A DNA stretch of 64,000 nucleotides from NCBI GenBank assembly GCA_044892525.1, contig CM097885.1, forward strand, positions 22,384,001 through 22,448,000, in the 5' to 3' direction. This document shows positions 47,981-63,769 of the stretch, piece after piece. Under the pieces are notes generated by a model. The model was not told the DNA's origin, did no database searches, and worked only from the letters and a program-made list of their open reading frames with translations. The DNA is from Schmidtea polychroa (taxonomy: Eukaryota). Each line of letters begins with the position of its first letter. Position 1 is the first letter of the stretch. Both the position numbers and the translations under genes were made by a program.

Positions 47981-48087
47981 TTTAAACTTTTTTTAATTTT
48001 CGAAAATTTTATTTAATCATTTTAAAAACAGTCATATTTTGAAAATTTCAAAACCGTACTGATCGAAACGGTAATATGCGAGGTATT

Positions 48088-48192
<105 letters not shown>

Positions 48193-48303
48193 CTGTTAAC
48201 CAATTATTCAATTCATTATTTTTAAAACATTTTTTATTTATCGAATAAATTCCCCCAAAAGTGACATTATATCAATAAAGTTAAAGAATAGAGTATATAT
48301 ATA

Positions 48304-48636
48304 AGTAGTGAGGAATCTATGCACCCCAGCACCCCCACCCTAAAAAAAAACAGCGCTATTGACCCATATTTTCCACATTTATATGCTTTTTTACCCCATA
48401 TTCTTCACTTTTTTTAACTTTTAAACTTTGTCCCCTATTGCCATTAACCCTTAATTTCTTCCCTTAAAAGTAAAAAAGTTCGGAATAGATGTATTTATAG
48501 ATTAGTAATTCCGAGAAAAGGTAACGGGGTGCATAGATTCCTCACTACTTGGTCTTAAGGATTTAATGTTATAAGGATTTAATGTTATAAGAATATCAGA
48601 TTACCTAATTCATAATGATCTAGGTCGCCTGATCAC
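48304..48636 (+). repeat. Left TIR of the Polinton
   Basis: Reverse complement of 61278-61610; contains an inverted copy of its first 24 bp (48526-48549) and TAAGGATTTAATGTTA x2. Confidence 0.97.
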
Positions 48637-48709
48637 TTTTAGATTTAAAAAAAATAAAAATTAATATCAAAACCAAAACATCGTATCCAACCAAAAGATT
48701 CTTTTAAAA

Positions 48710-51700
48710 ATGGAAGGTATTTTCAATTGTGAAATTTGTGAAAAAAATTTTAAAAATAAAACTGCTTTAACATCTCATAAAAAATCAAAAGACCATTTAA
48801 TAAAAGCTAACACACTAGATGACACTAATTCCAAAATCTGTACTAAATGTAAGGATAGATATTTATTTTCAGGTTATAAGAAGCATTTTAAAAATTGTAT
48901 TGGAGTTCCTAAAAACAGAGAAATATTCGAATGTTCAGCATGTGGAAAAACGATGAGGATAAAATCTTTTTACTTAAGACACATAGAAGATTGTGGTCTT
49001 GAAGCAAAAGATTCTGATTCAAACTCAATGATTGAAAAAGCTGAAAAACTAGAGTTTAATTGGGATGACTTCAATCACACCGATATAATTGCAGAAGTAA
49101 AACGAGGACCCAGATCAATCATGCAATATATAAGAGAAAATAAAAAAAAAATAATATCATCAATGGATGATGCTATAAAAAAATTTGGTAGATCAAGATT
49201 TAATGTTATAAAAGTTAAATTTACAGGAAATGTAAAATACTGGAGAGGAGATGATTCAATCGCAATGCCTCTAGATGTAAAAATTGAAACCTCATATAAA
49301 TATTTATTTTCTACAAAAGCAGGAAATAAACTTGTTAATGATATAGCTAAAGAATTGGAAGAAAAACAAGAACAGGTGGAACAAGAACTAGGAGAATCTA
49401 ATTTAAGATTCCACTCTTTTCAAAATATAGAGATTGAATACTGGAGAGGCGCACCACCAAATCCTAAATCTTTTATTCACACACCATTCACCTCCAACCA
49501 TGTTATAAATGTACAGAATAAAGATAATAAATGTTTTCAATGGTCAATACTTGCACACTTACATCCTCAAGCAACTAACCCACAGAGAGTTCAAAAATAT
49601 GAAGAATATGAATCTGAATTAATTTATCCAAAAGATTTTTCCCACCCAATGAAAATTGAAGATGTTCCAGCATTTGAAAAATTAAATAATCTTAAAATTA
49701 ATATTTATCAATTCATTCCAACCAAAATTACAAAAACTAGAAAAAATAAAAATTATAAACACATTATTCCTATTTACATTTCTAACATGGAAATCTCAGA
49801 TGAAAAGAGAGAAGTAGATCTTTTAATATTAGAAGAAGGTAAACCAGATGAAGACTTTGATGGAGAAGAATATGGTGAAGAGGTTCAAAGCGTTCACCCG
49901 AGGAGAGAAGCAGAAGAAGGCATTTCATTAGAACCAGAAGCAGAAAGCACTATGTTAGATAAAAAACTTCATTATATCTTAATAAAGAATTTTCAAAGTT
50001 TTATGAAAGGAAACACACTCATTCGTGGAGGCATATGTTGTAAAAGATGTTTATATCATTCAAGTTCAAAACTTGCTGCTATTAAACATGAGAGACTCTG
50101 TTGTAAGAATCAACCTGCTTTAATAAAAATGCCACACAAGAAAAATGCTAATATGAGGTTTAATAACTATTCCAATCTATTAGAAGCATTGGGAGTGGTT
50201 TATTGTGATTTTGAAGCTATAAATGTAAAACTAAGACGAACAAAAACTAATACTGTAAAACTAACAAAACAATTACCCTCTGCTTATAAAATGTTTTTTA
50301 AAAGTAATTATCCAGAACTTGTAGAATCTAGAGAATATTCATTTAGAGGAACTTCTGACAAAGAGACTCTAGATCATTTTGTTAAAACTTTAAATAATCT
50401 AGAACATGAATTATATATAATATTAAAATCCAACTTTCCTATGAATTTTTCAGAAGAACAAGAGGAAGAATATAAAAATGCAACACACTGCTGGATGTGT
50501 AAACAAGAGTTTTATATTCAGGAGGAGGAGGATGAGGAGCCAAAGGTTGCAGACCATGATCATTTTAAAAGAGAAAATAATTACAGAGGAGCAGCCCATA
50601 AAAAATGTAATCTCAATTGTAAAAACCAACACACATACCATTTATATTTCACAATCTTTTTGGCTATGATATTCACCTATTCATTAAGCATCTCGCCGCA
50701 AATGCTAAAAACTCTTTCAAGGTTATTGGACTTACAAAAGAAAAATATAAAAGCATTCAATATGGATGCTTTAAGTTTTTGGACTCGTTAAATTTCTTAG
50801 GGATGTCTTTGGATGGGATTGCTAAAACTATGAACCCTGAGGATTTTAAATATACAAAAGAACATGTGTTATTAAAAAACAATATTCCATTAGAGGAATA
50901 TAATACCTGTCTAGCAAAAGGAATCTATCCATATGATTATATAGACTCCTTTGAAAAATATAATGAATTACTCCCACCCCAAGAAGATTTCTTTTCTGTT
51001 TTAACACAATCAGGGATTTCTGATCAGGAATATTCCCGTGCAGTTAAAATGTGGAATCTATTCAACTGTAGAAACCTTGGAGAATATACTGACATGTATC
51101 TTTCCTTGGATGTTTATATCTTAGCTGATTGCTTCGAGACATTTTCAAAAGCTTTTGAATTAAAACCTTATAATTATATAACCGCTCCCTCTCTAGCTTG
51201 GGATATATTATTATATACCATATGGACTGATGAAGATGTAGCAGTAAGAAATAAAACTATTGAATTATTAGTTGAGCTTGATATGTTTAATGTATATAAA
51301 CATAATATTAGAGGAGGTATTTCTTCAGTACAAGGGAATAGAGAAATAAATGCTAATAATTTTACAACTCTTTATCCTAAATTTTTCAAAGATCCTAATG
51401 CTCTATATGTAGAAATAACAAACCCAGAAGATCGTAAGGAAATAATGGAAGGTCTTTCTAATCCTTCTGAAATAATGTATATAGATGCAACAGCTTTATA
51501 TGCGGGAGTAATGACTCAATACCTTCCAATTGGCAAGTTCACCTGGAAAGAACCCACTGAGGAATTAATACAAGAAATTCTAAAAACACCAAAAGATTCT
51601 CAATTTGGATATGTCATAGAATGCGATCTTGAATATCCCAATGAAATAAAATCCAGAACTAGATATTTTCCATTTGCTCCTGTAAGAAGAAAGATCTCTC

Positions 51701-53019
51701 CTGAAGAACTATCAGATTGGCAGATGGCTCAGGATAGATCGCCCTGTATAAAACTTTTATGCGATCAGACCGATAAAACTGATTACCTTTGTCATTATAG
51801 ACTCCTTCAGTTTTATCTCTCCCATGGAATGGTTTTAAAAAAAGTACATTCCATTATTAAATTTCGACAAGCCCCTTTTATGAAAAAATTCATAGAGGGA
51901 AATATTTTGAAAAGAAATGCAGCAAAGAGAGCTGGAAATGCATTTCTTGATATGATTTACAAACTCCTGAACAATGCGGTCTTTGGAAAGACCATGGAGA
52001 ATATAGACAAGTACACACGTGTAGAGCTTTTGACCAATACATCAAAAGACCTTAATAGGTACAACCGGATAATTGGAAAGCCCACATTTAAAAATGCCGA
52101 GATATTCTCTAGTAACCTTATAGCTATAGAGATTAAAAACTCTGTAAAAACTTATAATAAACCAATCTTTATAGGTTTTTCAATTTTAGAACTTTCAAAG
52201 CTTCAAATGTATGAGACCTACTATGATGTTCTAGTACCCCATTTTGGAGATCGAATATCCATGCATGCTATGGACACTGATAGTATGTTTTTAAAAGGTC
52301 ATAGTAAAGATTTAAAAAAGGAAATAAGTGAAAACGAAACCTTAAATAAATTAATAAACAACTCTGGAGAATTATTTACTTTTAAAGATGAAAAACCAAA
52401 TACTCCAATAAGTGGAGGAGTGTTTATTAGACCTAAACAATATTCTCTTGAAATGAAAGACAAACCAATTATGAAAGAGCATACAATAAAATTTATAATA
52501 GGGGAGGGAGAAGGATCTGTTGAAATAGATCACACATTTGAATATCCTTCATTCCCTGAAAACCCGAAAAGCTATAAAGAAAATAAAAGTAAAGGAATTC
52601 AAAAATCAGTGTCAAAAACCTTCACACATCAAGAGTATAAAGATTCATTAAATATAAATTATAAAAATAAAATTGCTAAAACCCATCATCTTAAATCAGA
52701 GAAACATAATATATATCTTGAAGAGTGTAACAAGATTGCTATAACAAATTATGATGATAAAAGATTTATACTTTCTGACTTGAAGACAACATTACCTATT
52801 GGAAATGATTTAATCCCTATAATAAAAAATCTTGATAAAATAAATGAAATTTATAACCTAGAGATTACAGACCTTCAACTTGCTAAAGTAGAAATCCAAT
52901 ATCCTGAAATATTAATTCCTAAACCTTTATATAATCAAGTTCAAAATATAAAACCTATAGAACTTAAATATTTTAATACTGATCCTGAATATATAAAGAA
53001 TTTAAAGATCATAAATTAA
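48710..53019 (+). CDS. polB: Protein-primed family B DNA polymerase (~1,430 aa; one -1 shift at 50621-50625)
   Basis: N-terminal zinc fingers; NKDNKCFQWS...LHYILI; YCDFEA (ExoI); CWMC...DHDH...GAAHKKCN insert; after the shift FHNLFGYD (ExoII), KGIYPYDY, IRGG, YIDATALY, KLLNNAVFGK, MDTDS, DDKRF. Confidence 0.95.
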
Positions 53020-53147
53020 TGATTCATAGGTTGGCTTTCAACGATATTTAATTTTTTAATAATAAAATGTCGACAATTAATTTAAGCAACTATAGCAACC
53101 TGATCTACTTTTTTAAAAATACACCCATTTTATAAGTAAGAATTCTT

Positions 53148-53741
53148 TTACCATTTTTCTCGAGATGTTTTTTTATTACTTATAACATTAGCCACCATGC
53201 CCTCCCTTTTTAATCTTATAACCTCATTCTTTATATCTTGTATTATTTGATTTGATTTCATTATTTCTTCGTCTGTCAGGATTCCATCTTCCAAAGCTTT
53301 TAATTGAAATAAAAATAATTTAGAGATTCCTAATTCTATTGATAAACAAACTTCTCTATATAAACTTTTCTTTTTAGAAGTATAAGATAATGAAACTATT
53401 TCAGTTAAGAAACCATCAGCCACAGAAATACTTCCAAGTATTACAGGTGCAAGAGTAACAACTGGTAAAGTTATGGGTAAAATAACTGTTAATATTGCAG
53501 ATGCAAATCCTAAAGAATAACCTATAACTTTTAAAACTGTATTCCCTTTATTCCATCTATTTTTAATTTTTTTATAATGCTTTAATAAATCTTGTAAATG
53601 TAAGGTTTCTGATTTAAATTCTTTTACTCTCATAATTTCAAGTTCTGTGGGAGCCGAGGCCTTGGAACCTTTGTGACCTTCGGAATAATATCCTGATGAT
53701 CTCAATTCTGGGTAAATTTTTTCTTCTCTTACTTCTTCCAT
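53148..53741 (-). CDS. Polinton putative membrane protein (197 aa)
   Basis: Central hydrophobic hairpin (VIGYSLGFASAILTVILPITLPVVTLAPVILGSISV) between helical regions; N-terminal IYPEL. Confidence 0.7.
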   Translation of the reverse strand: MEEVREEKIYPELRSSGYYSEGHKGSKASAPTELEIMRVKEFKSETLHLQDLLKHYKKIKNRWNKGNTVLKVIGYSLGFASAILTVILPITLPVVTLAPVILGSISVADGFLTEIVSLSYTSKKKSLYREVCLSIELGISKLFLFQLKALEDGILTDEEIMKSNQIIQDIKNEVIRLKREGMVANVISNKKTSREKW

Positions 53742-53749
53742 TTTAATAA

Positions 53750-54733
53750 TTAAAAAAATAAGACTTTATTCTTCTGAGCACCATCTGGCACCAATACTCG
53801 GATATCAAAAGAAACTCTTGTTGAGAGGATATCTTTATACAATTCTCTCAATGCTTTACGAACTTCATCAACATCAACCTTTTTTTCATAAAATATTAAA
53901 TCTATATATTGTACAAGTGAACTAGAAAAATGAATATTCTTACTTTTAACTTTATGTAGTCCATGTGAATGAGTATTAACATACCAATCTCTGTGTGGTA
54001 AATCATAACTAGTCATTATAACATCACCCTTTTCAAGCTTACTATTATAATCACATTTCACAAACCATTTCATTCTTTCATTATCATCATCAAACAAAAA
54101 GAAATAAGGATCAATAATCTTTACAACCATAAAAACACCCCATTCTTTACTGTTTGTTGTTATTAAACTTGGTTCTATAAAATGTTTATATGTATGGGGT
54201 AATAATGTTTTATTCTGTTCTAATTCAGCAGCTCTTTTTCTAATACTATGTGTGGTGTTAATGTGTGTTCCATGAGACTCTAAATTTGAAATTCTTTTAT
54301 TAAATGATGTAATCAACTCATTTATTATATTATATATTGTATTAAATTTATTATCCATAAGTTGTTTATTTTTAGAATTTAATATGCTAGTATTTAACTT
54401 TACAACTTGTTCAGTTAACAGACTTTGTAACTTGTCAAATTTATCATTAAATCGTTGTTCGATATTATTAAGCTTTGATTCTATTGAATCAATTTTTGTT
54501 GTTAATAAACTTTCAATTCTTGTTGTTGTTAAATCAGTATATTTTTTATTAACTGCATCAGAATCATCGGTTGGTAAAGATAAATCTTTTATCTTGTGTC
54601 CATTTAAATTTAAATCTCCTTTCATTGAATCACCTCTTTCATTAATATATCTCTTTTCTGTAAGAGATATAACATCTTCATCTTTTAATCCATCATTATA
54701 TAATCCAAACTTATTATAACTAGCATAATTCAT
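53750..54733 (-). CDS. Putative fiber/attachment protein (327 aa)
   Basis: GDSMKGDLNLNGHKIKDLSLPTDDSDAVNKKY (tail-fiber/adhesin neck-like motif), long heptad region, IRKR, C-terminal globular part. Confidence 0.6.
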   Translation of the reverse strand: MNYASYNKFGLYNDGLKDEDVISLTEKRYINERGDSMKGDLNLNGHKIKDLSLPTDDSDAVNKKYTDLTTTRIESLLTTKIDSIESKLNNIEQRFNDKFDKLQSLLTEQVVKLNTSILNSKNKQLMDNKFNTIYNIINELITSFNKRISNLESHGTHINTTHSIRKRAAELEQNKTLLPHTYKHFIEPSLITTNSKEWGVFMVVKIIDPYFFLFDDDNERMKWFVKCDYNSKLEKGDVIMTSYDLPHRDWYVNTHSHGLHKVKSKNIHFSSSLVQYIDLIFYEKKVDVDEVRKALRELYKDILSTRVSFDIRVLVPDGAQKNKVLFF

Positions 54734-54770
54734 TTTTATAGTAATAAAAATAAAATCCTTAGACGTCCCT

Positions 54771-55604
54771 CTAGACTTGTTTCAAATGTAAACACATTGA
54801 AATCTTTTCTCCATTAAAACTAATTAACTCTCCATCTTCATCAACAATTCTAAAACTAATATCCATTATATTTTTTCTACATAATGGTAAATAATTTGGG
54901 GGGTTCATTCTTTCAACCATTTTATATCCAACTCGCACGGTATTAGAAGGAAAGGAATATAAAATATTTGCATGTTTACCATTATTGTATGATCCCATTA
55001 TACAATCACACTCTATATTTATAGAATTTGTATTTGTTAATTGTATAATATTTTTAGATTTAATGGTTGATGGTGGATATTCTTTGACTTCAAAACCTAA
55101 AATAGTATGAAAGAAACTAGAAGTAGTAACACCAAGTCCAACATTTTTTAAAGTTGTAATACATTTTGAAGTTTGAATATCTGCTTTTATTTCTACATTT
55201 CCATTTGTTTCTTTTAAAATTGTTTTAGCTAAATCTGTTATTTCATATGATCCTGGTTCGATTGTTATAATGGTGTATTCCTTAGAAGTAATCTTTTCAT
55301 ATTCACTATTTTCCAATATACTAGGGAGAATAAATGAAACAAAAGGGAGGTCTCTATTATCACTCTTAAATATAATAAATTTATTATTATTATTATTTAT
55401 ATTAAAAATAGTATTAAAACAGCTAAACCACAAGAGTCCTAATTCATAATTTAAATCTTGATCTAAATTTATTGAATCTTCAAAATTTATAGTAAAATCT
55501 GATTCTTTTGAATTTATTAATAAACTTCTTGAATATTTATGTGACATTATGTTTGCTATTTTTTTTAAATAATCTTCCGGAAGGTTGCGAAGCTCCATTT
55601 TCAT
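54771..55604 (-). CDS. Minor capsid protein (penton, PX)
   Basis: SDFTINF..I.L...YELGL, IEPGSYEI, INIECD.I.GSY.NG...ILYSF, GYK..E....YLP, IVDEDGELISFNGE. Confidence 0.88.
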   Translation of the reverse strand: MKMELRNLPEDYLKKIANIMSHKYSRSLLINSKESDFTINFEDSINLDQDLNYELGLLWFSCFNTIFNINNNNNKFIIFKSDNRDLPFVSFILPSILENSEYEKITSKEYTIITIEPGSYEITDLAKTILKETNGNVEIKADIQTSKCITTLKNVGLGVTTSSFFHTILGFEVKEYPPSTIKSKNIIQLTNTNSINIECDCIMGSYNNGKHANILYSFPSNTVRVGYKMVERMNPPNYLPLCRKNIMDISFRIVDEDGELISFNGEKISMCLHLKQV

Positions 55605-56032
55605 AGTAAAGATTTTAAATCATTATAAATTTCTTGGATTAAGGAAGTGAAACCTTCTCCTTTGGATTTATTCAATCTATACAAAACATATAAGCTTAAA
55701 ATACCACATATTTTAGTATTATTAGGTTGAACCTGTAAAGAATTAAAAGTGTAGTCCGAGAGATAGTCTTCAACTTCTTTAGTGGGTTTAATCCCAAAAG
55801 AATCAAAGTATATAGATTTATTATATATACAAACCCAATGAGATCCTTTTTCATTTGAATTTTGAAAATTTATAATGATATTCTTTGGAGTGTCTTCTTT
55901 CAGACTCGACAATTCATCATTCATTAATATTTTTATTTTTAAATTTAAATAATCTGCATAATCTTTTAAATCAAAATTTGTTTTTGTATTTATTCCAAAT
56001 GTTTTTAAAAAATCTAATATTGAAGGAGTCAT
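55601..56032 (-). CDS. Adenain-like maturation cysteine protease
   Basis: IIN......GSHWVC, YFDSFG, Q......CG catalytic motifs. Confidence 0.92.
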   Translation of the reverse strand: MTPSILDFLKTFGINTKTNFDLKDYADYLNLKIKILMNDELSSLKEDTPKNIIINFQNSNEKGSHWVCIYNKSIYFDSFGIKPTKEVEDYLSDYTFNSLQVQPNNTKICGILSLYVLYRLNKSKGEGFTSLIQEIYNDLKSLL

Positions 56033-56040
56033 TTTATATT

Positions 56041-56829
56041 TTATAACTTCGTATACTTATTAAATTTATCTTTTGAAATTATTCCTTGTTTTAATAATTC
56101 TTTAGAAATCTTTAAAATATCAGAATCTAAATTATTATGTCCTGCTTTTTTAGCTGCTAATAGTTTTCTTAATTCAATAAAAAGATTGATTGGGTTTATC
56201 TCCTTACCCTTTCCCTGACCCTGGCCCTCTCCTTCTGTGACAATATAACCCCTTTCATTTTTATTTAAATATTTCTTTAAATCTTGAATATGTTTTGCTT
56301 TAGCACTACCATGTACTAATTCTATTAAATTTAAATATTTTTTAATTTCTAGAAGATCAACATTCTCTGAGGGATATCCACAAACTAATCCATAAAAATC
56401 ATCTGTAAATTCAAAATCTAGGTGTTTAGTATTATAAACATTTTGTGAATGAATACGTGATTTATTTTCTGAATTTAAATATAACAGAAAGTCATGTTTA
56501 TTAATTGTTATTATTTGATATCCTTCAACATTAATATTAAATGTAGGTTTAATTGTTTTACTTAAACTCACATTAATTTTAGGATCAAGTATAAGAGGTT
56601 TTATATTTAAATCTTCCAACCATGGTAATTCTTTTAAATCTTGTTTATCTTCCAACTCTTTAAATTTTAAAACTTCTAACTCTTTTATGGCTTTAATTGT
56701 TGGTCCTTGTTGTTGGATTACCTCATTTAATATTATAGATTCAGCGTGTTGAGTTGTATCTTTTTTATTATATTTATCTTGTTCTGATTGTAATTTTTTT
56801 AAAAGTGCTAATCTTTCTTCATATACCAT
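56041..56829 (-). CDS. Conserved Polinton core/structural protein (262 aa)
   Basis: C-terminal ELRKLLAAKKAGHNN...ELLKQGII preceded by GEGQGQGKG, as recalled from invertebrate Polinton proteins. Confidence 0.65.
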   Translation of the reverse strand: MVYEERLALLKKLQSEQDKYNKKDTTQHAESIILNEVIQQQGPTIKAIKELEVLKFKELEDKQDLKELPWLEDLNIKPLILDPKINVSLSKTIKPTFNINVEGYQIITINKHDFLLYLNSENKSRIHSQNVYNTKHLDFEFTDDFYGLVCGYPSENVDLLEIKKYLNLIELVHGSAKAKHIQDLKKYLNKNERGYIVTEGEGQGQGKGKEINPINLFIELRKLLAAKKAGHNNLDSDILKISKELLKQGIISKDKFNKYTKL

Positions 56830-56851
56830 TTTAATGGTATTAAAAATGGTA

Positions 56852-57460
56852 TCATTTTGGTAAAGGATCCGTTGGAAAGGGCTTCAAGTATAATCCTTTA
56901 CCATTTTTAGTTTTACAAAGGCATCCATTCTTTAAAGATTTACATATTTTTTTTAAATCTTCTTTATCTTTTGAAGATAAAGATTCAGATGTAGAAATTT
57001 GATTTTTTAAAAAATCATTTAAACCTCTACCTTTATAAGGATCAAGATAGAGACCTTTGCCCTGAGACTTTTGCCGACTCCCCTCATATGGATTAAGATA
57101 GAGACCCTTTCCAAAGGACACTCCCCCTTTAGCTTGCCCTACCTTCTTCATTGAATCGATTTCAGTTTGTAGTTTTTCTTTTTCTAGGTCTGTCTTTTGA
57201 GATTCTTTAGCTTTTTGAACTGTAGTTGCAATTCCTCCAGCTATTCCAGCAGCACCTGATAAACCAGCAATGATTGCAGGTATTAAAGCAGCCAATGGAA
57301 GAATGCCTCCGGATTTGGAGGAACTCCCTATATGTTCTTTAACTTGTTCTTTTACATGTTTTCCAATAAAATATTTCTTACCAGAGATTACTACTGATTT
57401 ATTTTTATTTGAATTTATTAATTCTTGCAAAGATTCCTCTGTAGGGTTTTGTGTTGTCAT
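56852..57460 (-). CDS. Adenovirus pX-like core protein (202 aa)
   Basis: SGGILPLAALIPAIIAGLSGAAGIAGG resembles adenovirus pX GGILPLLIPLIAAAIGA; three GKGLYL(N/D/K)P repeats. Confidence 0.75.
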   Translation of the reverse strand: MTTQNPTEESLQELINSNKNKSVVISGKKYFIGKHVKEQVKEHIGSSSKSGGILPLAALIPAIIAGLSGAAGIAGGIATTVQKAKESQKTDLEKEKLQTEIDSMKKVGQAKGGVSFGKGLYLNPYEGSRQKSQGKGLYLDPYKGRGLNDFLKNQISTSESLSSKDKEDLKKICKSLKNGCLCKTKNGKGLYLKPFPTDPLPK

Positions 57461-57476
57461 TTTATAATAAATAAAA

Positions 57477-58271
57477 ATGGATACTTGGAAACCAATTTTA
57501 AATAGACATAAATCTAAATTTAATAATAAAGTATTTCCTGATAATTTTAGATGCTTAATTATTGGATCTTCTGGATGTGGAAAGAATGTTCTTCTTATGA
57601 GAATGTTATTAGAAGATGGTTTTTTGGATTATAATAATTTAATCTTTTATTCTACAACCATTAACCAACCGAAATTACAACTTTTGAAATGTGGATTTGA
57701 AAATAAATTAACTAAAAAAGCTATAATTGATATTTTTAAAAATCAACATACATATCCCGAAGAGGTTTTTCATCCTTGTGATATGGTTGATTGGTACAAG
57801 GAAAAGATTTTAGAATCAGATATTAGTAATAAAAATGATTATATAGGGGATGGAATCCAGATCTTATTCTCTAATAAACCTGAAGATGTTTTACATTGTG
57901 ATTTACTTCCTAAAGATAAAAAGAATCTAGTTATATTTGATGATGTTGTTAACATGAAAAATCAAGAGATTCAAAAGAGTTACTTTACACGAGGTCGACA
58001 TAATAATTGTAATGTTATTTATATATCTCAAACATATTATGCTTTAGATAAAAACTCTATAAGAAATAATTCTAATTGTTTTATATTTTTTAAATTAGAC
58101 AAGCGTGATAAGAATATGATTTATAATGATTTATTTTCAAATGTTGAACCTGATAAGAATATGTTTGATATGTTTGTTGATAATCATTGGAAAGAAAAAT
58201 ATAATTATATTTATTTGGATAGAGAAGAAGCTGAAATATGGAAAAGTTTGTTTAAGGGCTTGTCGACTTAA
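57477..58271 (+). CDS. A32/FtsK-like genome packaging ATPase
   Basis: IIGSSGCGKN (Walker A, with N in place of T/S), LVIFDD (Walker B), TRGRHNN..IYISQ, IRNN. Confidence 0.93.
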   Translation: MDTWKPILNRHKSKFNNKVFPDNFRCLIIGSSGCGKNVLLMRMLLEDGFLDYNNLIFYSTTINQPKLQLLKCGFENKLTKKAIIDIFKNQHTYPEEVFHPCDMVDWYKEKILESDISNKNDYIGDGIQILFSNKPEDVLHCDLLPKDKKNLVIFDDVVNMKNQEIQKSYFTRGRHNNCNVIYISQTYYALDKNSIRNNSNCFIFFKLDKRDKNMIYNDLFSNVEPDKNMFDMFVDNHWKEKYNYIYLDREEAEIWKSLFKGLST

Positions 58272-59098
58272 AAATCTGTTTTCTGTAACTCATTATTATA
58301 AAATCTACCTAATATTTTTTCATTATTTAAATCAATGATGCTATATGTTATTGGAGTTGTATAATGTATTTTATTTATAATAAAAATTTCATTTGTCCAT
58401 TTTGCTGTGAATCCTTTTTCAAATTTATTTTTATATTTAAATATTCTTACGCGGTCACCAATTTTAAATTTTGGTTTTATAGGGGTTGTATCAACAATAA
58501 CATCATTTTCAATATTTACCACTTTAACTGTTTCAGGATTCAAGGAAGCATTTAAAGGTGTTGATTTTATAGAACTATGTACATCATTATTATATTCATT
58601 TACAATCTTTTGTAACAATTCATTGTTCCATTTTTGTTTTCCAATAGCAGTAAAATATTTCCACATTTTATTTTTTAATGTTCTATTTAATCTTTCAACC
58701 ACAACTGCTTTTCCTTCGTTTTCTGTTGAATATAATTTAATATCATTTTCATTTAAAAACTTTGTAAAAACTTTGTTATAAAATTCTGTTCCTTTATCAC
58801 ACCATAAATATTTTGGAATTCTTTGATATTCTTCAAATATATTTTCAAATGCTTCTGTAATTGAATATCCTGTTTTATTTTCTAAACACCTTGCAAAAGC
58901 AAATCTTGTATATAAATCTATTACTGTTAAAATTATTTTATATTTTTCAGGGTCTGATGATTTGGGCATAAAGACTAAATCAGCAGACCATGTTTGATCT
59001 TTTTCATGTACTTGAACTTTTAAATATTTTTTATTTTTTCTAAATTCATGGTGTAATTCGTTGGCATATTTTATTTGTGATTCTGTTGGGGTTTGTAA
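58268..59098 (-). CDS. int: Polinton retroviral-type integrase lacking its start codon
   Basis: The frame extends upstream of the tracked ORF as YANELHHEFRK...TWSADLVFM (first D), then CDKGTEF, VERLNRTLK, KFKIGDRVRI, FYNNELQK; no ATG before the upstream stop. Confidence 0.9.
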   Translation of the reverse strand, partial: LQTPTESQIKYANELHHEFRKNKKYLKVQVHEKDQTWSADLVFMPKSSDPEKYKIILTVIDLYTRFAFARCLENKTGYSITEAFENIFEEYQRIPKYLWCDKGTEFYNKVFTKFLNENDIKLYSTENEGKAVVVERLNRTLKNKMWKYFTAIGKQKWNNELLQKIVNEYNNDVHSSIKSTPLNASLNPETVKVVNIENDVIVDTTPIKPKFKIGDRVRIFKYKNKFEKGFTAKWTNEIFIINKIHYTTPITYSIIDLNNEKILGRFYNNELQKTDF

Positions 59099-60092
59099 GG
59101 GTAAATTCCATTCTATTTATTGGATAATAAGAACTATTTAATTGAATTTGTATTGTTTTTAAATTATCATCTCCAATCTTTTGAATAAATAGATTGTTAT
59201 TTTTTTGGAAAGATGAATCTACTTCTTTGAATCCAATCAAGATATATCTTGGTCGGTATGCTAAATTTGCCACCTTTATAGAATATGTTGAACCCTCTGT
59301 CATACTAAATTCACTACAGATTCTATTTAAATAATTTACATTTATAGACTTGTTGGAATTTAATCTTTCAAGGAGTTTGATTTCAGAATGTGGATTTAAT
59401 GTCCATTCAGGTATATGTAATTCAAGTGTTGATAATTTTAATTTAGCTTTTGTATCTGCAGCTCCATAGAACAATCTTTTATCACTTTCTACTCTATTAC
59501 AGATGAATTCTATAAAAACATTATGGAGCACCCGGTTATAGTTTTGAAGGAATCCGAACAAGTGTTTTAATTCAAAATAACCTTCAAATTTTTTCAACTT
59601 ATAAAGTTCAGCTCTTTTATAGTAAGCATAATTTATATCTAAACCATCTTTATCTGTATCTCCTTTATTAACATCAGGAATCCAACCTGTTAATTCACCA
59701 TATTCATTTTTATAATCACAACCAGTCAAAATAAAATTTAACATTGTAGAATATACTCCTGGATGTAAAACAGTTTCAATTTCTGATGATCCTAGTTTTA
59801 ATCTCATGTTGGAGAATAAATTTGGAAAGAAATTATTTTCTAGGGTTATATCTTTGTTTGCTTCAATTTCTAATTCAATTTTATAATATAATTTGGCATT
59901 ACAAATATCTATAGGGTTTGATGTTTGAAGAGATTGAAAAACTATATCACCCCTACGATTTAAGTTTGCAATAGATCCTGAAGTTGGGGATATTTTTAAA
60001 ATATCATTTTTTTTAATTTCATGAGTAAATTCTTTATTATAATCAAGATTTAATTTATTTTTTTCTTGAATTTTAAGATTTATATTATTCAT
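59046..60092 (-). CDS. Major capsid protein (double jelly-roll, PY), C-terminally truncated
   Basis: NNFFPNLFS, EIE..HPG, LKHLFGF, LHIP, RPRYILIGF, LNSSYYP; then the ORF runs out of frame into integrase sequence. Confidence 0.88.
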   Translation of the reverse strand: MNNINLKIQEKNKLNLDYNKEFTHEIKKNDILKISPTSGSIANLNRRGDIVFQSLQTSNPIDICNAKLYYKIELEIEANKDITLENNFFPNLFSNMRLKLGSSEIETVLHPGVYSTMLNFILTGCDYKNEYGELTGWIPDVNKGDTDKDGLDINYAYYKRAELYKLKKFEGYFELKHLFGFLQNYNRVLHNVFIEFICNRVESDKRLFYGAADTKAKLKLSTLELHIPEWTLNPHSEIKLLERLNSNKSINVNYLNRICSEFSMTEGSTYSIKVANLAYRPRYILIGFKEVDSSFQKNNNLFIQKIGDDNLKTIQIQLNSSYYPINRMEFTLTNPNRITNKICQRITP

Positions 60093-60146
60093 TTTTATAT
60101 ATTAAAATTTACACACACAATAGGATTAATTAAATATATTATGTAA

Positions 60147-60227
60147 GCCATTATAGCGGAGTGGGAATAGGCTTCAATTTTATCACCGGGAGTCCGGGTT
60201 CAATTTTCGATTTTGGTCAATTTTTTT
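60147..60227 (+). ncRNA. tRNA-like Pol III unit 1
   Basis: A box TAGCGGAGTGG (60154), B box GGTTCAATT (60197), T7 at 60221. Confidence 0.6.
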
Positions 60228-60379
60228 CGATATTTTTTTTTCAACGGAATCTGATTCAGCGTACTGATTTTAGTATATATTTAAATTTTCAGATGGATCT
60301 GAGTGGTAGTTGTCGAGAAAATGAATAATTAATTATTAATTTCATCAATAAATAGTCACACATTAACAACTTATTTTAT

Positions 60380-60461
60380 ATTGAGTATAGCTTAGTGGTA
60401 ATAGCACTCGACTGCATTCCCAATACCAATGGGTTCAAATCCCATTTCGGTCATTTTTTTT
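60380..60461 (+). ncRNA. tRNA-like Pol III unit 2
   Basis: A box TAGCTTAGTGG (60388), D stem GCT/AGC, T arm ATGGG-TTCAAAT-CCCAT, T8 at 60454. Confidence 0.7.
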
Positions 60462-60619
60462 CAAATTTTTTTTTTAAACAAAATATTGATCAGCATACTC
60501 GATTTAGTACTTGTACAAATTTTAAAGGTGATTGGTCAACGGCAACTCTTGGAAATTTAAGATCAAAAACGTTTTAACTTGAATCGATTATTTATAGTCT
60601 AAAAAATGACAAAAATTCA

Positions 60620-60704
60620 AACCTTGATGGCGCAGTGGGAATAGACTGGCACAGTGGTTCAAATGGATAGCGGTTCAAATCACATCTGAGGTTAGTTTTT
60701 TTTT
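60620..60704 (+). ncRNA. tRNA-like Pol III unit 3
   Basis: A box TGGCGCAGTGG (60628), B box GGTTCAAATC (60672), acceptor-like AACCTT/GAGGTT, T9 at 60696. Confidence 0.65.
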
Positions 60705-60870
60705 CAACATAAAATAATATTAAAAATTTGAAAATAATATTGAAAATAGTGTGGGTATCTTATATTTATAAAGTACTTGTATATTTTATTTTATTTATTT
60801 TATTTTATTTTATTTTTTTTATTAATTAATTATTTTTTAAACATAAATATGAAAAAAAAAATATTGAAAC

Positions 60871-60948
60871 GGGTGATGGTGGCGAACCGGTAATTATCGC
60901 CACCTGTCTTTCGAACACCCCCGGATCGATCCCTTTCTCAGTTGTTTT
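60871..60948 (+). ncRNA. tRNA-like Pol III unit 4 (divergent), at the head of a longer structured segment
   Basis: A-box-like TGGCGAACCGG (60880), B-box-like GGATCGATCCC (60923), T4 at 60945; same spacing as units 1-3. Confidence 0.45.
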
Positions 60949-61174
60949 CGGACCTCTTTCGGATTCGCTTTCGAATTCATTTGTACTTTCGAGCAGCACG
61001 CTTAAAACGCCGTTGAAATCGACTTCGTGAGCGAGAAGCGAATAATAAGGCGTGCTGCTATTATCGGATTGATTCTGATGTATGAGTCTGGCCAGCTTGT
61101 ATATTGGAAGAGATTTGATAAACGAAAGAGGTTGATAAATAAAAAAAAAAATGATCCGGATCAAAAAAAACTGT

Positions 61175-61220
61175 TGAGGGGACAGTGAAAAAAAAAAAAA
61201 AAAATACCACTGTCCCCTCA
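61175..61220. other. 13-bp perfect hairpin with an A-rich loop next to the right TIR
   Basis: TGAGGGGACAGTG / CACTGTCCCCTCA, extendable by AAAACTG/CAGTTTT. Confidence 0.85.
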
Positions 61221-61277
61221 GAGCAGTTTTACTATTTTCATAAAATTTTTTATTTTTAAAACTTTCAAAACCTTAAG

Positions 61278-61610
61278 GTGATCAGGCGACCTAGATCATT
61301 ATGAATTAGGTAATCTGATATTCTTATAACATTAAATCCTTATAACATTAAATCCTTAAGACCAAGTAGTGAGGAATCTATGCACCCCGTTACCTTTTCT
61401 CGGAATTACTAATCTATAAATACATCTATTCCGAACTTTTTTACTTTTAAGGGAAGAAATTAAGGGTTAATGGCAATAGGGGACAAAGTTTAAAAGTTAA
61501 AAAAAGTGAAGAATATGGGGTAAAAAAGCATATAAATGTGGAAAATATGGGTCAATAGCGCTGTTTTTTTTTAGGGTGGGGGTGCTGGGGTGCATAGATT
61601 CCTCACTACT
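61278..61610 (-). repeat. Right TIR of the Polinton
   Basis: Reverse complement of 48304-48636. Confidence 0.97.
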
Positions 61611-61770
61611 TATATAGGTACGGAAACACCCACAACAACCGCATAAAAATGTCAATTATGATATTAATCAAATAATTAATAATTTAATGAATGTTAGAAA
61701 AGTATCAGAAAAACTATTTAAATAATTTATAAAAAAATGTCTATCAAAATCATATAAAATGTACGAGTTT

Positions 61771-63769
61771 TCAAAATTTCAAATCAAGAAGGATTTGAGC
61801 CAGTGCTTTCCCCTGAAAATTACCAACAATTATAATAAATTACTTTTCAAATCAACCTGAGCATCAAATCTTAACGAGGCCACTCCTCCACCATCTAGTG
61901 CATTTTTTAAAACAAAATTTAGAGCCTTAATTCCCGGAAGCTCATATCTAGACATTATAAATTTAGATTGAAACTTTAAAGTATTTTATTGCTAATAATT
62001 TATAAATACACTACTTTGATATTTTATAATTTACTATCTTTATTACTAGACTTCGTTCAGGATATATTCAAACTAATTCTTTAATCATTATTATTATTAA
62101 TTTTATTGATCCTATTTGTGAGATATTTTCAGCGAGAATTAAATATTTCAATGATTTATCAAAATAATTTTAAATTGTAAATAATTGACTATTAAAATAA
62201 CTTTTAAATAATTTTTAAATTGGATTTTTTAAGTTGAAATTTTTGAATTAAAAATTAAAATAGCTTTTTAAAAAAGAAGTTTTATTAATGGAAAATTTTT
62301 AAATAAATATATATTTAAATATTGAAATTTTGATAAATGGTTTTGAAAAGACTTTATTCAACGCTGAAAATTTGTTTAAAATTATACAATATGTCAGGTG
62401 ATAAATACTTGGGATTTTGTCGTTAACTTTTGAACCGGATTAAAAAATTATTTATAAGATGTTTTAGCAGCTTCTAATACTATTATTACAATTTTATTAC
62501 CTGGTTATATATAATAGATTTAGTCTCTTGTTGATCATAAACGATGATGAAAAACGCGCAGGGATTCTTCGCTCTTGACATTACCATATTCAGCTAACAT
62601 TGACCTGTTAAATCCAAGCGTTTCAGTTAGATAGGAATAATAACATTTACAAGTGTCACGTCGTTAGCGTTCGTTGTTTGGAAGAAGTTCTTGTGATAAA
62701 CAGACAAACCCATAATGAATTTTAAAAAATAAAACTTTAATTTATGCCAATTCATTTAATTTATATATCCGGTTGCATTTCATAACATTTCTGTATTGCG
62801 TGTTGGGTTGACATACATTACATGTCTGAAGTTAATTTAAAGGTAAAGGCCTAATAATATTATTTTACCAAGAAATTATTTGAAGTATATGAAGGCCTGG
62901 ATATGAAACGGAATTTATATTCAATAAAATCTACTCCCTCTGTCCCATAATACTGGATATTTGAAGAGTTGAAGAAAAGAATTAGTTGAATAATAAAACG
63001 AAAAGAAGTTATTTGATTATTTGAATAAAGTTTGGAAGAAAGTCAAAGGAAACAACCAGCTCAAATTCCAGTTCAGAAACCAATCAGTAATTTTTGATCT
63101 TTAAACCCGGTATTATACACAAGTGATATTCCTCACCGAGTGTTGTAATAAGCATTGTATAGTCACCAAGCAGACTGTTGAATTTATTGTCAGTGTCAAG
63201 TGAAAGTTTATTTGTGATTATCAATAAAGATTTCTGTTGTCAAGTGTTATTTGTGAATCATATAAAGACACGCTTGGAGTCAGAGTAACATTTTAAATTT
63301 ATCACCGACTCAATAACCCAACATATTCTTGAAATTACAACACTAAATATTTGAACAAAAACGACGTTAATGTAAAGAAAAATTAAAATATTCAAGAAAT
63401 CATGATATGAAAAAAATCCCAGTTATAATTAAAAGGTACAAAAACCTAAAATTATATAACCTTTCAATGTTTCCATGCCAATCATTATCTGGAAAAACAT
63501 GATTAAGATATGATCCGACTACATCCGTAGTTAAATTCGTTTTAATGATTTCCCAAGCATCATTATTTCTAGACACAACACCAATGTTACAAGTATTTCC
63601 TTTATCACCACTTCGAGCATATGCCAAATCTCTCAAAGTAAAAGAGTTACTCAATTTCTGATAATCAGATTTTGAAATATTCAATGATTCTTTACAATGA
63701 TTTGAATTTATAATGTTAACTTTTTCTGATGGCAAAGAAAATTCTTCAGAATTAATTTTAACTGAGACC
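61771..63769 (-). CDS. Host AtuA-family (acyclic terpene utilisation) protein, 3' exons
   Basis: Exons ~63769-63461, 61947-61857 and 61812-61771 join at GT-AG sites to give LAYARSGDKGNTCNIGV...IER-YELPGIKALNFVLKNALDGGGVASLRFDAQ-GKALAQILLDLKF*; the gene continues upstream. Confidence 0.85.
63141..63342. mobile_element. Possible solo LTR in the AtuA intron
   Basis: TGTTGTAAT...ATTACAACA termini and an internal AATAAA; no TSD. Confidence 0.35.

What the first reader, a model, noticed from the sequence alone, without database searches (positions are those of the whole stretch)
60147..60948. Polinton carries an array of four tRNA-like Pol III genes, a possible VA-RNA/TMER analogue
Seen: the ORF-free gap between the capsid gene and right TIR has A boxes at 60154, 60388, 60628 and 60880 (spacing 234, 240, 252). 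Each is followed by GG(G/T)AAT, a B box 43-44 nt after the A box, and a T-run 22-24 nt after the B box. Promoter boxes, spacing and some D, T and acceptor pairing persist, while the anticodon regions differ and do not form canonical arms. Spacers 1 and 2 are related (GATTCAGCGTACTGATTTTAGTA / GATCAGCATACTCGATTTAGTA), indicating old tandem duplication. Established: adenoviruses, relatives of Polintons, encode Pol III VA RNAs with internal A/B boxes that antagonise dsRNA sensing and RNAi; murine gammaherpesvirus 68 encodes tRNA-like TMERs. Inference: this Polinton makes ~80-nt tRNA-mimic RNAs (anti-silencing decoys or small-RNA precursors), or uses TFIIIC-bound boxes as a chromatin barrier. I know of no such array described in Polintons.
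Basis: partly seen in the sequence, partly recalled or inferred. Interest (0 to 1): 0.92.

Follow-up and report, generated by a model that had tools for sequence, protein, structure and literature searches.

The report
tRNA-derived RNA cassettes inside a Polinton
A virus-like jumping gene present in thousands of copies in an animal genome carries, beside its capsid gene, a row of worn-down tRNA genes that keep only their promoter and stop signals, the last followed by a strongly folded RNA, so the element probably makes its own small non-coding RNAs, as some animal viruses do.

Summary
The window has a 13.3-kb Polinton (TIRs 48293-48664 / 61250-61621). Between its capsid gene and right TIR lie four same-strand cassettes of A box, B box 43-44 nt later, then a T-run.

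They belong to the element. They are not a host SINE: 38 other full-length copies of the gap were found, and 11 of 12 capsid-anchored copies carry cassettes.

They are not tRNA mimics. Only unit 2 nears the Rfam tRNA cut-off (27.3 vs 29 bits); its 5' half matches the host tRNA-Cys(GCA). The cloverleaf stems of the unit-3 family pair no better than slid controls. The boxes, however, vary less than the rest of the unit (3 of 22 vs 28 of 58 columns, p=0.004).

The number of units differs between subfamilies (0-5). Unit 4 is the commonest.

The plus strand of 60950-61230 folds far better than shuffles (z -5.0; minus strand -1.3). Across 16 copies, 99.5% of cells stay paired, with two compensatory pairs.

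Best reading (about 0.5): Pol III-type non-coding RNA genes, with unit 4 plus the structured RNA resembling herpesvirus TMERs. Transcription is not shown.

This scan noted a similar Pol III-type hairpin in a Polinton of another genome (e1-7468532).

The parts
48293..48664 (.). Left terminal inverted repeat of the Polinton
   Evidence: Inverted repeat with 61250-61621, 372 nt, 97%. blastn extends it to 48298-48672 against 61235-61616 and no further, so this copy has no cassette at its left end.
59046..60092 (-). Major capsid protein gene (double jelly roll), transcribed away from the cassettes
   Evidence: Pfam PF21738, E 9e-21. 116 scored genomic copies at 95-97% identity. Their open frames are mostly 433 aa against 351 in the window copy.
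60147..60227 (+). Unit 1: A box 60154-60164, B box 60197-60207, T7 60221-60227, second T9 60233-60241
   Evidence: No Rfam tRNA hit at E<=10. Weak hit of the unit-3 profile, E 0.093. Among capsid-anchored copies it is present only in some subfamilies (2 of 12).
60381..60461 (+). Unit 2: decayed tRNA-Cys(GCA) gene; A box 60388, B box 60432, T8 60454-60461, second T10 60466-60475
   Evidence: Rfam tRNA 27.3 bits (cut-off 29), E 0.0034. The 5' half is 28 of 31 identical to the host tRNA-Cys(GCA), anticodon triplet included; in the 3' half little but the B box is shared. The exact 29-mer core occurs 1,270 times in the genome.
60621..60704 (+). Unit 3: A box 60628, two B-box-like GGTTCAAAT motifs (60656, 60672), T9 60696-60704
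   Evidence: Family of 18 aligned variants: boxes invariant except at degenerate consensus positions, flanks variable. Cloverleaf stems not kept. The core pattern occurs 1,694 times. 0-2 copies per element.
60873..60948 (+). Unit 4: A box 60880 lying in an invariant 8-bp hairpin (60878-60885 with 60897-60904), B box 60923, T4 60945-60948; private deletion of about 17 nt after 60933 in this copy
   Evidence: Present in 11 of 12 capsid-anchored copies. The exact 27-mer core occurs 2,656 times.
60951..61133 (+). Structured RNA domain: 10-bp closing stem, hairpin 1 (60961-60978), hairpin 2 (60992-61059), 25-bp hairpin 3 (61061-61121) with 9 G-U pairs
   Evidence: Plus strand -71.7 kcal/mol against -47.8+-4.8 for shuffles, z -5.0, 0 of 200. 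Minus strand z -1.3. Same asymmetry in a diverged copy. Pair counts.
61134..61166 (+). A-rich linker holding GATCCGG, complementary to the B box of unit 4
   Evidence: RNAalifold helix, columns 56-62 with 307-313, invariant in 16 of 16, so uninformative. A-run lengths vary between copies.
61167..61230 (+). Terminal 21-bp hairpin with an A-run loop of variable length (A10-A28)
   Evidence: One pair changes on both sides: G-C in 7, A-U in 8, G-U in 1.
61227..61257 (+). Series of T-runs (T4, T4, T6, T5) at the inner edge of the TIR: candidate terminators for read-through from unit 4
   Evidence: Read. Their use is inferred.
61250..61621 (.). Right terminal inverted repeat
   Evidence: The sequence outside about 61260 does not align between subfamilies.

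Best explanation
The non-coding right end of this high-copy animal Polinton/Maverick holds a row of cassettes derived from tRNA genes. At least unit 2 comes from a tRNA-Cys(GCA) gene, and the ~240-bp units look tandemly duplicated. The cassettes have lost the tRNA fold but keep what a type-2 RNA polymerase III gene needs: an A box, a B box 43-45 nt later, and a T-run about 22-25 nt after the B box. I infer that host TFIIIC/TFIIIB/Pol III transcribes them on the plus strand, outward towards the element's end. Units 1-3 would give RNAs of about 75-85 nt. Unit 4, the commonest cassette, has only a T4. It would give either a short RNA or, by read-through, an RNA of about 360 nt that carries the conserved multi-hairpin domain 60951-61230 and ends at the T-runs 61227-61257. 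That layout matches the tRNA-like head plus stem-loops of herpesvirus TMERs. Shown here: the motifs and their spacing; membership in the element; lower variability of the boxes; the tRNA-Cys origin of unit 2; the strand-specific, covarying structure of the domain. Inferred: Pol III transcription; linkage of unit 4 and the domain in one transcript; any downstream role (small-RNA precursor, decoy, or RNA scaffold).
For: (1) Four same-strand cassettes against 0.23 expected. A generic composite scan finds only these four in the window.
(2) They are part of the element. 38 other full-length copies of 60093-61249 at 94-97%, plus one copy in two pieces, were scored out of 2,490 candidates. Capsid sequence flanks them in the 29 fetched loci. 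In 12 loci picked by capsid similarity alone, 11 carry 1-5 cassettes, all on the same strand relative to the capsid gene, with 0 hits on the other strand.
(3) Unit-3 family, 18 variants: 3 of 22 box columns vary against 28 of 58 other columns (one-sided Fisher p 0.0037). For variants shared by at least 2 sequences it is 1 of 22 against 22 of 58 (p 0.0019). The shared box variant sits at the R position of the A-box consensus. The T-run and the 3' GGTTAG are invariant. Unit 4: 2 of 21 against 24 of 79 (p 0.042), but 1 of 21 against 8 of 79 (p 0.40) for shared variants.
(4) The layout copies host tRNA genes, which end in T6/T7 (Arg, Lys) or T3...T4 (Cys) a few bases after the gene.
(5) Unit 2 against host tRNA-Cys(GCA): 28 of 31 identical in the 5' half; Rfam tRNA 27.3 bits.
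(6) Domain: plus strand z -5.0, minus strand z -1.3. The whole of 60873-61235 has z -9.45. A copy about 12% diverged gives z -4.75 against -1.89. With DNA parameters the values are only -2.3 and -1.8.
(7) Sixteen copies: 99.5% of 1,657 cells paired (0 of 500 shuffles reach this; slid controls give 42-45%). Two pairs change on both sides (12 cells; 0 of 500 shuffles reach 12). Eight further pairs change on one side only, between G-U and A-U or G-C, which keeps pairing only on the plus strand.
(8) Weak hint only. In three runs whose RNA nature is a guess (two studies), contigs cover this end; one contig spans 60970-61171. The bin 60851-61249 has the highest summed word depth of the 30 bins, while a DNA-like run is nearly flat. 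The tool warns that contig depth cannot rank parts of a stretch.
Against: No transcript, RNA end, strand or polymerase is shown, and no holder run is on record as RNA. The units themselves have no stable or conserved fold. The number and kind of units vary between subfamilies, and one capsid-anchored copy has none, so units 1-3 are dispensable for the element. An invariant T4 separates unit 4 from the domain, and the host tRNA-Cys genes have only T3/T4 runs, so T4 may terminate here and the domain may need another promoter. The A box of unit 4 lies inside an invariant hairpin that is not tRNA-like. The copies are young, so most paired columns never vary (89 of 104) and the pair statistics rest on few events in related sequences. 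The structure tested was derived from the same sequences. Distant relatives show no cassettes: 0 tRNAs in 36 metagenome loci, no Rfam tRNA at E<=1 in 20 of them, best nhmmer E 0.48. The two relatives with long contigs have ORFs where the gap would be.
Confidence: 0.5

Rival explanations
1. DNA-level role. The cassettes are kept as TFIIIC/TFIIIB binding sites, like tDNA barriers or ETC sites. They would shield the element from flanking chromatin, or keep the divergent capsid promoter open. Any RNA made would be a by-product.
For: Only the boxes, not an RNA fold, are kept in units 1-3. In some subfamilies the first cassette starts 17-45 nt from the capsid start codon, so capsid promoter and cassettes must overlap. 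Among the first 100 listed unit-4 cores, 18 outward-facing pairs lie 11-21 kb apart (13 of them 13.2-13.8 kb), against 2 inward-facing and 4 same-strand pairs. This suggests that many copies carry units 3 and 4 at both ends. That tDNAs act as barriers in yeast and mammals is recalled knowledge, not from a call.
Against: Invariant T7-T9 runs at a fixed distance from every B box are needed for termination, not for TFIIIC binding. The strand-specific covarying structure after unit 4 points to an RNA product. The both-ends layout was inferred from coordinates only; the left-end sequence could not be fetched.
Confidence: 0.18
2. Hitch-hiking debris. A piece of a host tandem tRNA-gene array was captured once and is decaying. 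The boxes look conserved only because the family is young.
For: The host keeps tRNA genes in huge tandem arrays with periods of 278, 281 and 424 nt, close to the 234-252 nt here. The cloverleaf is lost. The unit number is variable, and one copy has none. Diversity among near-identical copies is too low to show constraint. Distant relatives have no cassettes.
Against: Between the paralogous units the middle part has drifted to 25-50% identity while the boxes persist. Within the unit-3 family the boxes vary less than the rest of the unit (p 0.004 and 0.002). Terminators are invariant. The adjoining domain shows compensatory changes. Host spacers show no evident likeness to the element's spacers, judged by eye.
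Confidence: 0.15
3. The folded domain acts as single-stranded DNA, or as a duplex palindrome, next to the TIR. It would serve protein-primed replication, panhandle formation or packaging, not as RNA.
For: It abuts the TIR, and by coordinates it seems to lie at both ends of many copies. The two both-sided changes (G-C to A-T) suit DNA as well. The strand displaced during replication carries the domain in the same sense at its 3' end; this is inference from the adenovirus-type replication scheme.
Against: With DNA parameters the fold is much weaker and nearly symmetric (z -2.3 and -1.8), against -5.0 and -1.3 as RNA. About 11% of paired cells are G-U (my tally from the pair types), and all eight one-sided changes run through G-U. 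The window copy has the domain at one end only.
Confidence: 0.07
4. The contig cover at 60950-61170 comes from a minus-strand leader exon or 5' UTR of late (capsid) mRNAs that start near the TIR, not from a plus-strand small RNA.
For: Earlier notes on this genome propose small upstream exons for the pPolB gene of this family (e1-7879957, e1-7879963; not tested here). Contigs cannot show the strand.
Against: The minus strand has no significant fold, whereas sequence change preserves the plus-strand fold. I saw no AG acceptor within about 80 nt upstream of the capsid ATG on the minus strand (read). No joint in the RNA-guessed runs appears among those listed (many rows were not shown).
Confidence: 0.05

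Closest known systems
TMERs of murine gammaherpesvirus 68 (tRNA-miRNA-encoded RNAs)
   Same: Both are a cluster of same-strand Pol III-type units near one end of a linear dsDNA virus genome. Each TMER has a non-functional tRNA-like head carrying the promoter, followed by stem-loops. According to passages of PMC4838037, eight TMERs of 200-250 nt lie in the first 5.5 kb, each with a tRNA-like element and two pre-miRNA hairpins, processed by tRNase Z and Dicer. Unit 4 plus hairpins 1-3 and the terminal hairpin has this layout.
   Different: There is no sequence relation. Units 1-3 have no hairpins. A T4 lies between unit 4 and the hairpins. The head of unit 4 is a long hairpin, not a cloverleaf. 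No processing or small RNAs are shown. The host is an invertebrate-type animal genome and the element is an integrated Polinton.
Adenovirus VA RNA I/II
   Same: Both are virus-borne type-2 Pol III genes with internal A and B boxes and a highly structured product. Polintons are regarded as relatives of adenoviruses. PMC4838037 mentions VA RNAs as highly expressed ncRNAs; the rest is recalled.
   Different: No Rfam family other than tRNA reaches E<=1 in 48000-62000. In VA RNA the boxes lie inside the roughly 160-nt structured RNA; here the boxes lie in unstructured, tRNA-derived units. No link to PKR or RNAi has been tested.
tRNA genes of polinton-like viruses, virophages and other mid-size dsDNA viruses
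   Same: Relatives of Polintons do carry tRNA genes. PMC12220804 (passages) reports 558 tRNA hits in 8,300 PLV/virophage genomes. PMC8502044 (Fig. 6 legend) flags predicted tRNA genes.
   Different: Those are reported as decoding tRNAs found by ARAGORN or Rfam at gathering score. Here ARAGORN finds none and no unit passes the Rfam cut-off. The cloverleaf is not kept, and the units form a tandem array.
tRNA-derived SINE heads
   Same: Both are a tRNA-derived promoter module that keeps its A and B boxes while the rest decays. Unit 4 is followed by a body and A-rich runs.
   Different: Units 1-3 end at once in T7-T9 terminators, as genes do and as SINE heads do not. All 41 other loci examined (L002-L042) hold capsid sequence beside the gap, and the cassettes lie in a fixed order and strand in 40 of them; L038 has none. 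Independent dispersed copies with target-site duplications were not looked for.
tDNA / TFIIIC barrier elements (ETC sites)
   Same: B-box-bearing DNA with a chromatin role would explain conserved boxes without a conserved RNA fold, and possibly the placement at both ends.
   Different: ETC sites need no A box or terminator, whereas here all three parts are kept. No chromatin data exist. The comparison is recalled, not tested.

Membership tests
tRNA gene (Rfam RF00005 / ARAGORN) | Score at or above the Rfam gathering cut-off of 29 bits | tested here: not met
   Unit 2 scores 27.3 bits and 26.7 bits in copy L039. Units 1, 3 and 4 give no hit at E<=10. There are 0 hits at gathering score in the window.
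tRNA gene (Rfam RF00005 / ARAGORN) | Cloverleaf found by ARAGORN | tested here: not met
   0 genes in the window. The same tool finds host tRNA-Lys, -Arg and -Cys genes.
tRNA gene (Rfam RF00005 / ARAGORN) | Acceptor and T stems maintained in evolution | tested here: not met
   Unit-3 family: 56.9% of cells paired, against 58.3% and 62.0% for slid controls, with 0 compensatory pairs.
Type-2 (tRNA-type) RNA polymerase III gene | A box TRGCNNAGTGG-like near the 5' end | tested here: met
   Four of four units. It is invariant, or varies only at degenerate positions, across 18 unit-3 and 16 unit-4 variants.
Type-2 (tRNA-type) RNA polymerase III gene | B box GGTTCRANNCC-like 30-60 nt after the A box | tested here: met
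   Distance 43-44 nt in the window. The base that unit 1 lacks relative to 27 of 29 other copies lies between its boxes, which by my reckoning makes the distance one longer there. Unit 4 has GGATCGAT, with A at the T54 position.
Type-2 (tRNA-type) RNA polymerase III gene | Oligo-T terminator shortly after the B-box arm | tested here: met
   T7, T8, T9 and T4. Host tRNA genes use T6, T7 or T3...T4.
Type-2 (tRNA-type) RNA polymerase III gene | Occupancy by TFIIIC/TFIIIB/Pol III and a discrete transcript | not testable with these tools
   No run is on record as RNA. Contigs cannot show ends or strand.
TMER-type unit (tRNA-like head plus stem-loops in one Pol III transcript) | Stable stem-loops directly downstream of the tRNA-like head | tested here: met
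   True for unit 4 only: z -5.0 and -9.45, with covariation. Units 1-3 have none.
TMER-type unit (tRNA-like head plus stem-loops in one Pol III transcript) | No terminator between head and stem-loops | tested here: not met
   An invariant T4 at 60945-60948 lies between them. Whether T4 stops Pol III in this host is unknown.
TMER-type unit (tRNA-like head plus stem-loops in one Pol III transcript) | Processing by tRNase Z and Dicer into small RNAs | not testable with these tools
   No small-RNA reads were available.
Adenovirus VA RNA | Match to a curated Rfam family for this RNA | tested here: not met
   No match other than tRNA and one microRNA family at E<=1 in 48000-62000. In 60050-61300 there are only weak microRNA- and snoRNA-type hits.
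tRNA-derived SINE | Dispersed copies independent of the Polinton, with target-site duplications | not tested
   All 41 other loci examined hold capsid sequence beside the gap.

The most novel reading that the evidence does not exclude
An animal Polinton/Maverick encodes its own Pol III transcription units, and in many copies they lie within long terminal repeats at both ends, facing outward. A tRNA-derived promoter head (unit 4) drives a conserved multi-hairpin RNA that is processed into small RNAs or acts as a decoy, as an independent invention of the herpesvirus TMER design. The short cassettes (units 1-3) add further small RNAs or recruit TFIIIC. With at least 5,600 such cassettes, the family would also reshape the host's Pol III and TFIIIC landscape.
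Probability: 0.3. Interest if true: 0.85.

Novelty: new variant of a known kind. Interest (0 to 1): 0.62.

Why it matters
Polintons/Mavericks are viewed as kin of adenoviruses and virophages. So far they are described as carrying protein genes only; decoding tRNAs are reported in protist polinton-like viruses.

A conserved set of Pol III-type cassettes plus a covarying structured RNA would mean that borrowing host Pol III for viral non-coding RNAs also occurs in this lineage. Until now this strategy is known from adenoviruses and gammaherpesviruses.

The case is directly testable in an animal where the element is young and very abundant. The genome holds 2,656 unit-4 cores, 1,694 unit-3 cores and 1,270 unit-2 cores.

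It also matters for annotation. Thousands of A/B-box sites that tRNA finders miss may bind TFIIIC and affect chromatin and the host Pol III budget.

Tried and rejected
1. RNA evidence. No RNA holder is listed. The runs laid are contigs whose RNA nature is a guess, so they cannot show level, ends or strand. Parts without cover in X2 and X3 are not interpreted.
2. ARAGORN on the window gave nothing, and so did Rfam at gathering score.
3. Thermodynamic stability of the four units: z +0.06 to -0.96, not different from shuffles.
4. Cloverleaf covariation in the unit-3 family: none. I also tried alternative acceptor registers by eye and found no consistent pattern.
5. Constraint among 30 near-identical copies: no power. 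The sample was picked by similarity to the array itself.
6. Divergent Polinton families in the same genome. Searching with distant capsid relatives returned only this family, at 75-76% and 51-52% identity.
7. Relatives elsewhere. Viral contigs gave none. The 36 metagenome loci had no tRNA, no composite cassette and no nhmmer hit. L043 and L044 have ORFs directly upstream of the capsid gene.
8. A mir-754 lead from locus L044: no match in the window's genome, and the control rang nowhere, so it is uninformative.
9. Small ORFs in the gap. In three subfamily copies the G>A change at 61080 removes the start codon of the 36-aa plus-strand ORF. The 28-aa minus-strand ORF spans the window's private deletion. 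Both are rejected as genes.
10. SINE reading of unit 4 plus body: not supported by context, but independent copies were not examined.
The both-ends layout therefore rests on coordinates only.
12. Left end of the window copy: the inverted repeat stops at 61235, so there is no cassette there.
Full report
CONTEXT. The window (about 25-30% G+C) holds a complete-looking Polinton/Maverick. It has 372-nt terminal inverted repeats at 48293-48664 and 61250-61621, 97% alike. Its ORFs include a protein-primed family-B polymerase (50803-53019), an A32-type packaging ATPase (57477-58271), an rve integrase (58268-58969, minus strand) and a double-jelly-roll capsid protein (59046-60092, minus strand). The 1,157 bases between the capsid start codon and the right TIR have no ORF above 43 aa. 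The window lies in a 781-Mb assembly in which this family is very abundant. A capsid search scored 116 copies at 95-97% identity out of 3,513 candidates.

THE OBSERVATION. A generic composite of my own (A box, B box, T-run), run on both strands, recovers only these four in the window. The window copy is somewhat decayed. Unit 4 has a private deletion of about 17 nt, unit 1 lacks a base present in 27 of 29 other copies, one base of unit 2 differs from 29 of 29, and the capsid frame is shorter than in other copies.

ARE THE CASSETTES PART OF THE ELEMENT? Yes. The whole gap recurs in 38 other full-length copies at 94-97%, plus one copy in two pieces (40 of 2,490 candidates scored). Capsid sequence lies beside it in the fetched loci. 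In 12 loci chosen only by capsid similarity to two distant relatives, 11 carry cassettes, always on the same strand relative to the capsid gene. These loci also revealed subfamilies about 11-17% diverged in this region, with different make-up:
- units 1-2-3-3-4 (L039);
- units 1, 2, a truncated unit 3 and unit 4 (L040);
- units 3-4 after 250-290 unrelated bases (L031, L032, L034);
- units 3-3-4 (L033, L035, L036, L041, L042);
- unit 4 with a degenerate unit 3 (L037);
- none (L038).

Unit 4 and the sequence behind it are the commonest part. Exact-core counts in the genome are 2,656 for unit 4, 1,694 for unit 3 and 1,270 for unit 2.

ARE THEY tRNA-LIKE? Only in origin and promoter.
- ARAGORN finds nothing.
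- Unit 2 alone approaches the Rfam tRNA cut-off: 27.3 against 29 bits, and 26.7 bits in another copy.
- The 5' half of unit 2 is 28 of 31 identical to the host tRNA-Cys(GCA), anticodon triplet included. In the 3' half little but the B box is shared.
- A profile of unit 3 weakly detects units 2 and 1 (E 0.017 and 0.093), and spacers 1 and 2 are 35 of 51 identical. This supports tandem duplication of a unit of about 240 bp.
- Host tRNA genes themselves sit in very large tandem arrays with periods of 278, 281 and 424 nt, which is a plausible source.
- None of the four units folds better than shuffles.
- Across 18 unit-3 variants the acceptor and T stems are 56.9% paired, no better than stems slid by one column, with no compensatory change.

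So the 'tRNA mimic' idea is not supported.

ARE THE PROMOTER PARTS UNDER CONSTRAINT? In the unit-3 family 3 of 22 box columns vary against 28 of 58 other columns (p 0.0037). For variants shared by two or more sequences the figures are 1 of 22 against 22 of 58 (p 0.0019). The shared box variant is A/G at the R of TRGC, and the T-run is invariant. For unit 4 the contrast is weaker: 2 of 21 against 24 of 79 (p 0.042), and not significant for shared variants. The rows are related sequences, so these p-values are indicative only. Between paralogous units the middle part is down to 25-50% identity while the boxes persist.

THE STRUCTURED DOMAIN.
- Directly after unit 4, the plus strand of 60950-61170 folds at -71.7 kcal/mol against -47.8+-4.8 for shuffles (z -5.0, 0 of 200). 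The minus strand gives z -1.3.
- With unit 4 and the terminal hairpin included, z is -9.45.
- A copy from another subfamily behaves the same way: -4.75 against -1.89.
- With DNA parameters the signal is weak and nearly symmetric: -2.3 and -1.8.
- The fold is a three-way junction closed by a 10-bp stem. It holds a 12-bp hairpin 2 and a 25-bp hairpin 3 containing 9 G-U pairs. An A-rich linker follows, then a 21-bp terminal hairpin whose A-run loop varies from A10 to A28.

On 16 copies RNAalifold predicts 104 pairs, and 99.5% of 1,657 cells are standard pairs (0 of 500 shuffles reach this; slid controls give 42-45%). Two pairs change on both sides. The first, in hairpin 2, shows G-C 5, G-U 3, A-U 6 and 2 unpaired. 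The second, in the terminal hairpin, shows G-C 7, G-U 1 and A-U 8. Eight more pairs change on one side between G-U and A-U or G-C. Caveats: the structure was derived from these same sequences, 89 of 104 pairs never vary, and the changes are few events shared by related copies. Two G>A differences reported at 61067 and 61080 in the laid runs fall on G-U pairs and give A-U.

HINTS OF RNA. No holder run is on record as RNA. I laid four runs, all as contigs. In three runs whose RNA nature is a guess (two studies), cover of the element is uneven: X2 has depth in 20 of 30 bins and X3 in 23 of 30. The bin 60851-61249 has the highest summed word depth, at 3,513, 8,215 and 34; the next best bins have 665, 1,113 and 20. 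One contig spans 60970-61171. A DNA-like run covers all bins within about six-fold. The tool states that contig depth cannot rank parts of a stretch and that strand and ends cannot be seen, so I count this as a weak hint only.

GEOMETRY AT THE ENDS. In the window copy the inverted repeat stops at 61235, so the cassettes sit at one end only. Among the first 100 listed unit-4 cores, however, 18 outward-facing pairs lie 11-21 kb apart (13 of them 13.2-13.8 kb). There are only 2 inward-facing and 4 same-strand pairs at such distances. Unit-3 cores accompany several of these pairs at both ends, while unit-2 cores sit at one end only. This suggests that many copies carry units 3 and 4 and the domain inside longer terminal repeats. 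I could not fetch the sequence to confirm it.

RELATIVES ELSEWHERE. Capsid relatives at 25-53% identity in metagenome contigs show no cassettes:
- 0 ARAGORN genes in 36 loci;
- no Rfam tRNA at E<=1 in 20 loci;
- 0 composite hits in 88,778 bases;
- best nhmmer E-value 0.48.

The two long contigs have ORFs directly upstream of the capsid gene. The viral collection gave nothing. The feature therefore looks specific to this lineage. The closer relatives (72-73% identity) could not be examined.

INTERPRETATION. The simplest account of conserved A box, B box and terminator without a conserved tRNA fold is that these are working type-2 Pol III units. The covarying plus-strand fold behind the constant unit 4 argues that at least one product acts as an RNA. 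Whether unit 4 drives that RNA depends on read-through of an invariant T4. Host tRNA-Cys genes have only T3/T4 runs, whereas Arg and Lys genes have T6/T7, so this remains open. The layout resembles MHV68 TMERs (passages of PMC4838037) more than VA RNA. The rivals are a DNA-level TFIIIC or barrier role, neutral debris of a captured tRNA array, a single-stranded-DNA structure for replication, and a minus-strand leader exon. They are weighed in their own sections. The first is not exclusive of the main reading.

NOVELTY. tRNA genes are reported in polinton-like viruses and virophages (PMC12220804, passages) and flagged in other mid-size dsDNA viruses (PMC8502044, figure legend). Searches for 'Polinton' with 'tRNA' (166 papers, 20 listed by title and abstract start), for 'Polinton' with 'polymerase III' (10 papers, all listed) and for 'Maverick' with 'tRNA-like' and 'transposon' (4 papers, all listed) gave no title or abstract on Pol III-type cassettes in Polintons. 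The library lacks most subscription journals, and I did not read these papers beyond the passages named. Another reports a 7SL fragment in a gene-less Polinton relative of this same genome (e1-7879908). Both are untested leads that fit a habit of capturing Pol III genes.

Noticed in passing
L109 (G000:C1:269249138-269252165) and neighbours; L079; L102; L106: Host tRNA genes lie in very large head-to-tail arrays. tRNA-Cys(GCA) has a 281-nt period, with 995 pattern hits genome-wide, the 100 listed all lying in one region of contig C1. tRNA-Arg(TCG) has a 278-nt period and tRNA-Lys(TTT) a 424-nt period.
   Followed up: partly
L044:5436-5515 (-): A metagenome contig encoding a capsid 51% identical to this one hits Rfam mir-754 at 48.6 bits (cut-off 84), E 9e-7. 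A search for that family in the window's genome found nothing, and the control rang nowhere.
   Followed up: partly
window:59046-60092 (-): The capsid frame of the window copy is 351 codons and matches other copies only to residue 338. Most other copies have frames of 433 codons. This copy is damaged at the capsid C-terminus.
   Followed up: no
window:61260-61700 against L031-L042: Subfamilies that share the cassettes and the domain at 83-90% do not align at all beyond about 61260, where the window's TIR lies. The terminal repeats thus seem to differ between subfamilies more than the RNA region does.
   Followed up: no
G000:C1:9866548 (-) and 9867245 (+): Two unit-4 cores face outward only 697 nt apart.
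   Followed up: no
window:60921-60927 with 61153-61159: The B box of unit 4 (CCGGATC) is complementary to GATCCGG in the A-rich linker. RNAalifold pairs them and both are invariant in 16 of 16 copies, so the pairing can be neither supported nor refuted.
   Followed up: partly
L038 (G000:C1:114355840-114360075): One capsid-anchored copy has 1,470 bases upstream of the capsid start with no likeness to the cassette region. It may be an insertion or a different subfamily.
   Followed up: no
window:48081-48194: A (TA)n run of about 110 nt lies about 100 nt outside the left TIR.
   Followed up: no
window:28050-32468: Three ORFs of 435-477 aa on the + strand lie in a stretch richer in G+C (0.37-0.39) than the rest of the window. 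They were not examined.
   Followed up: no
alignment A3, columns 69-85 (after window 60933): The stretch of unit 4 that the window copy lacks holds a short perfect palindrome in all 15 other aligned copies. RNAalifold draws it as a 4-bp hairpin.
   Followed up: no
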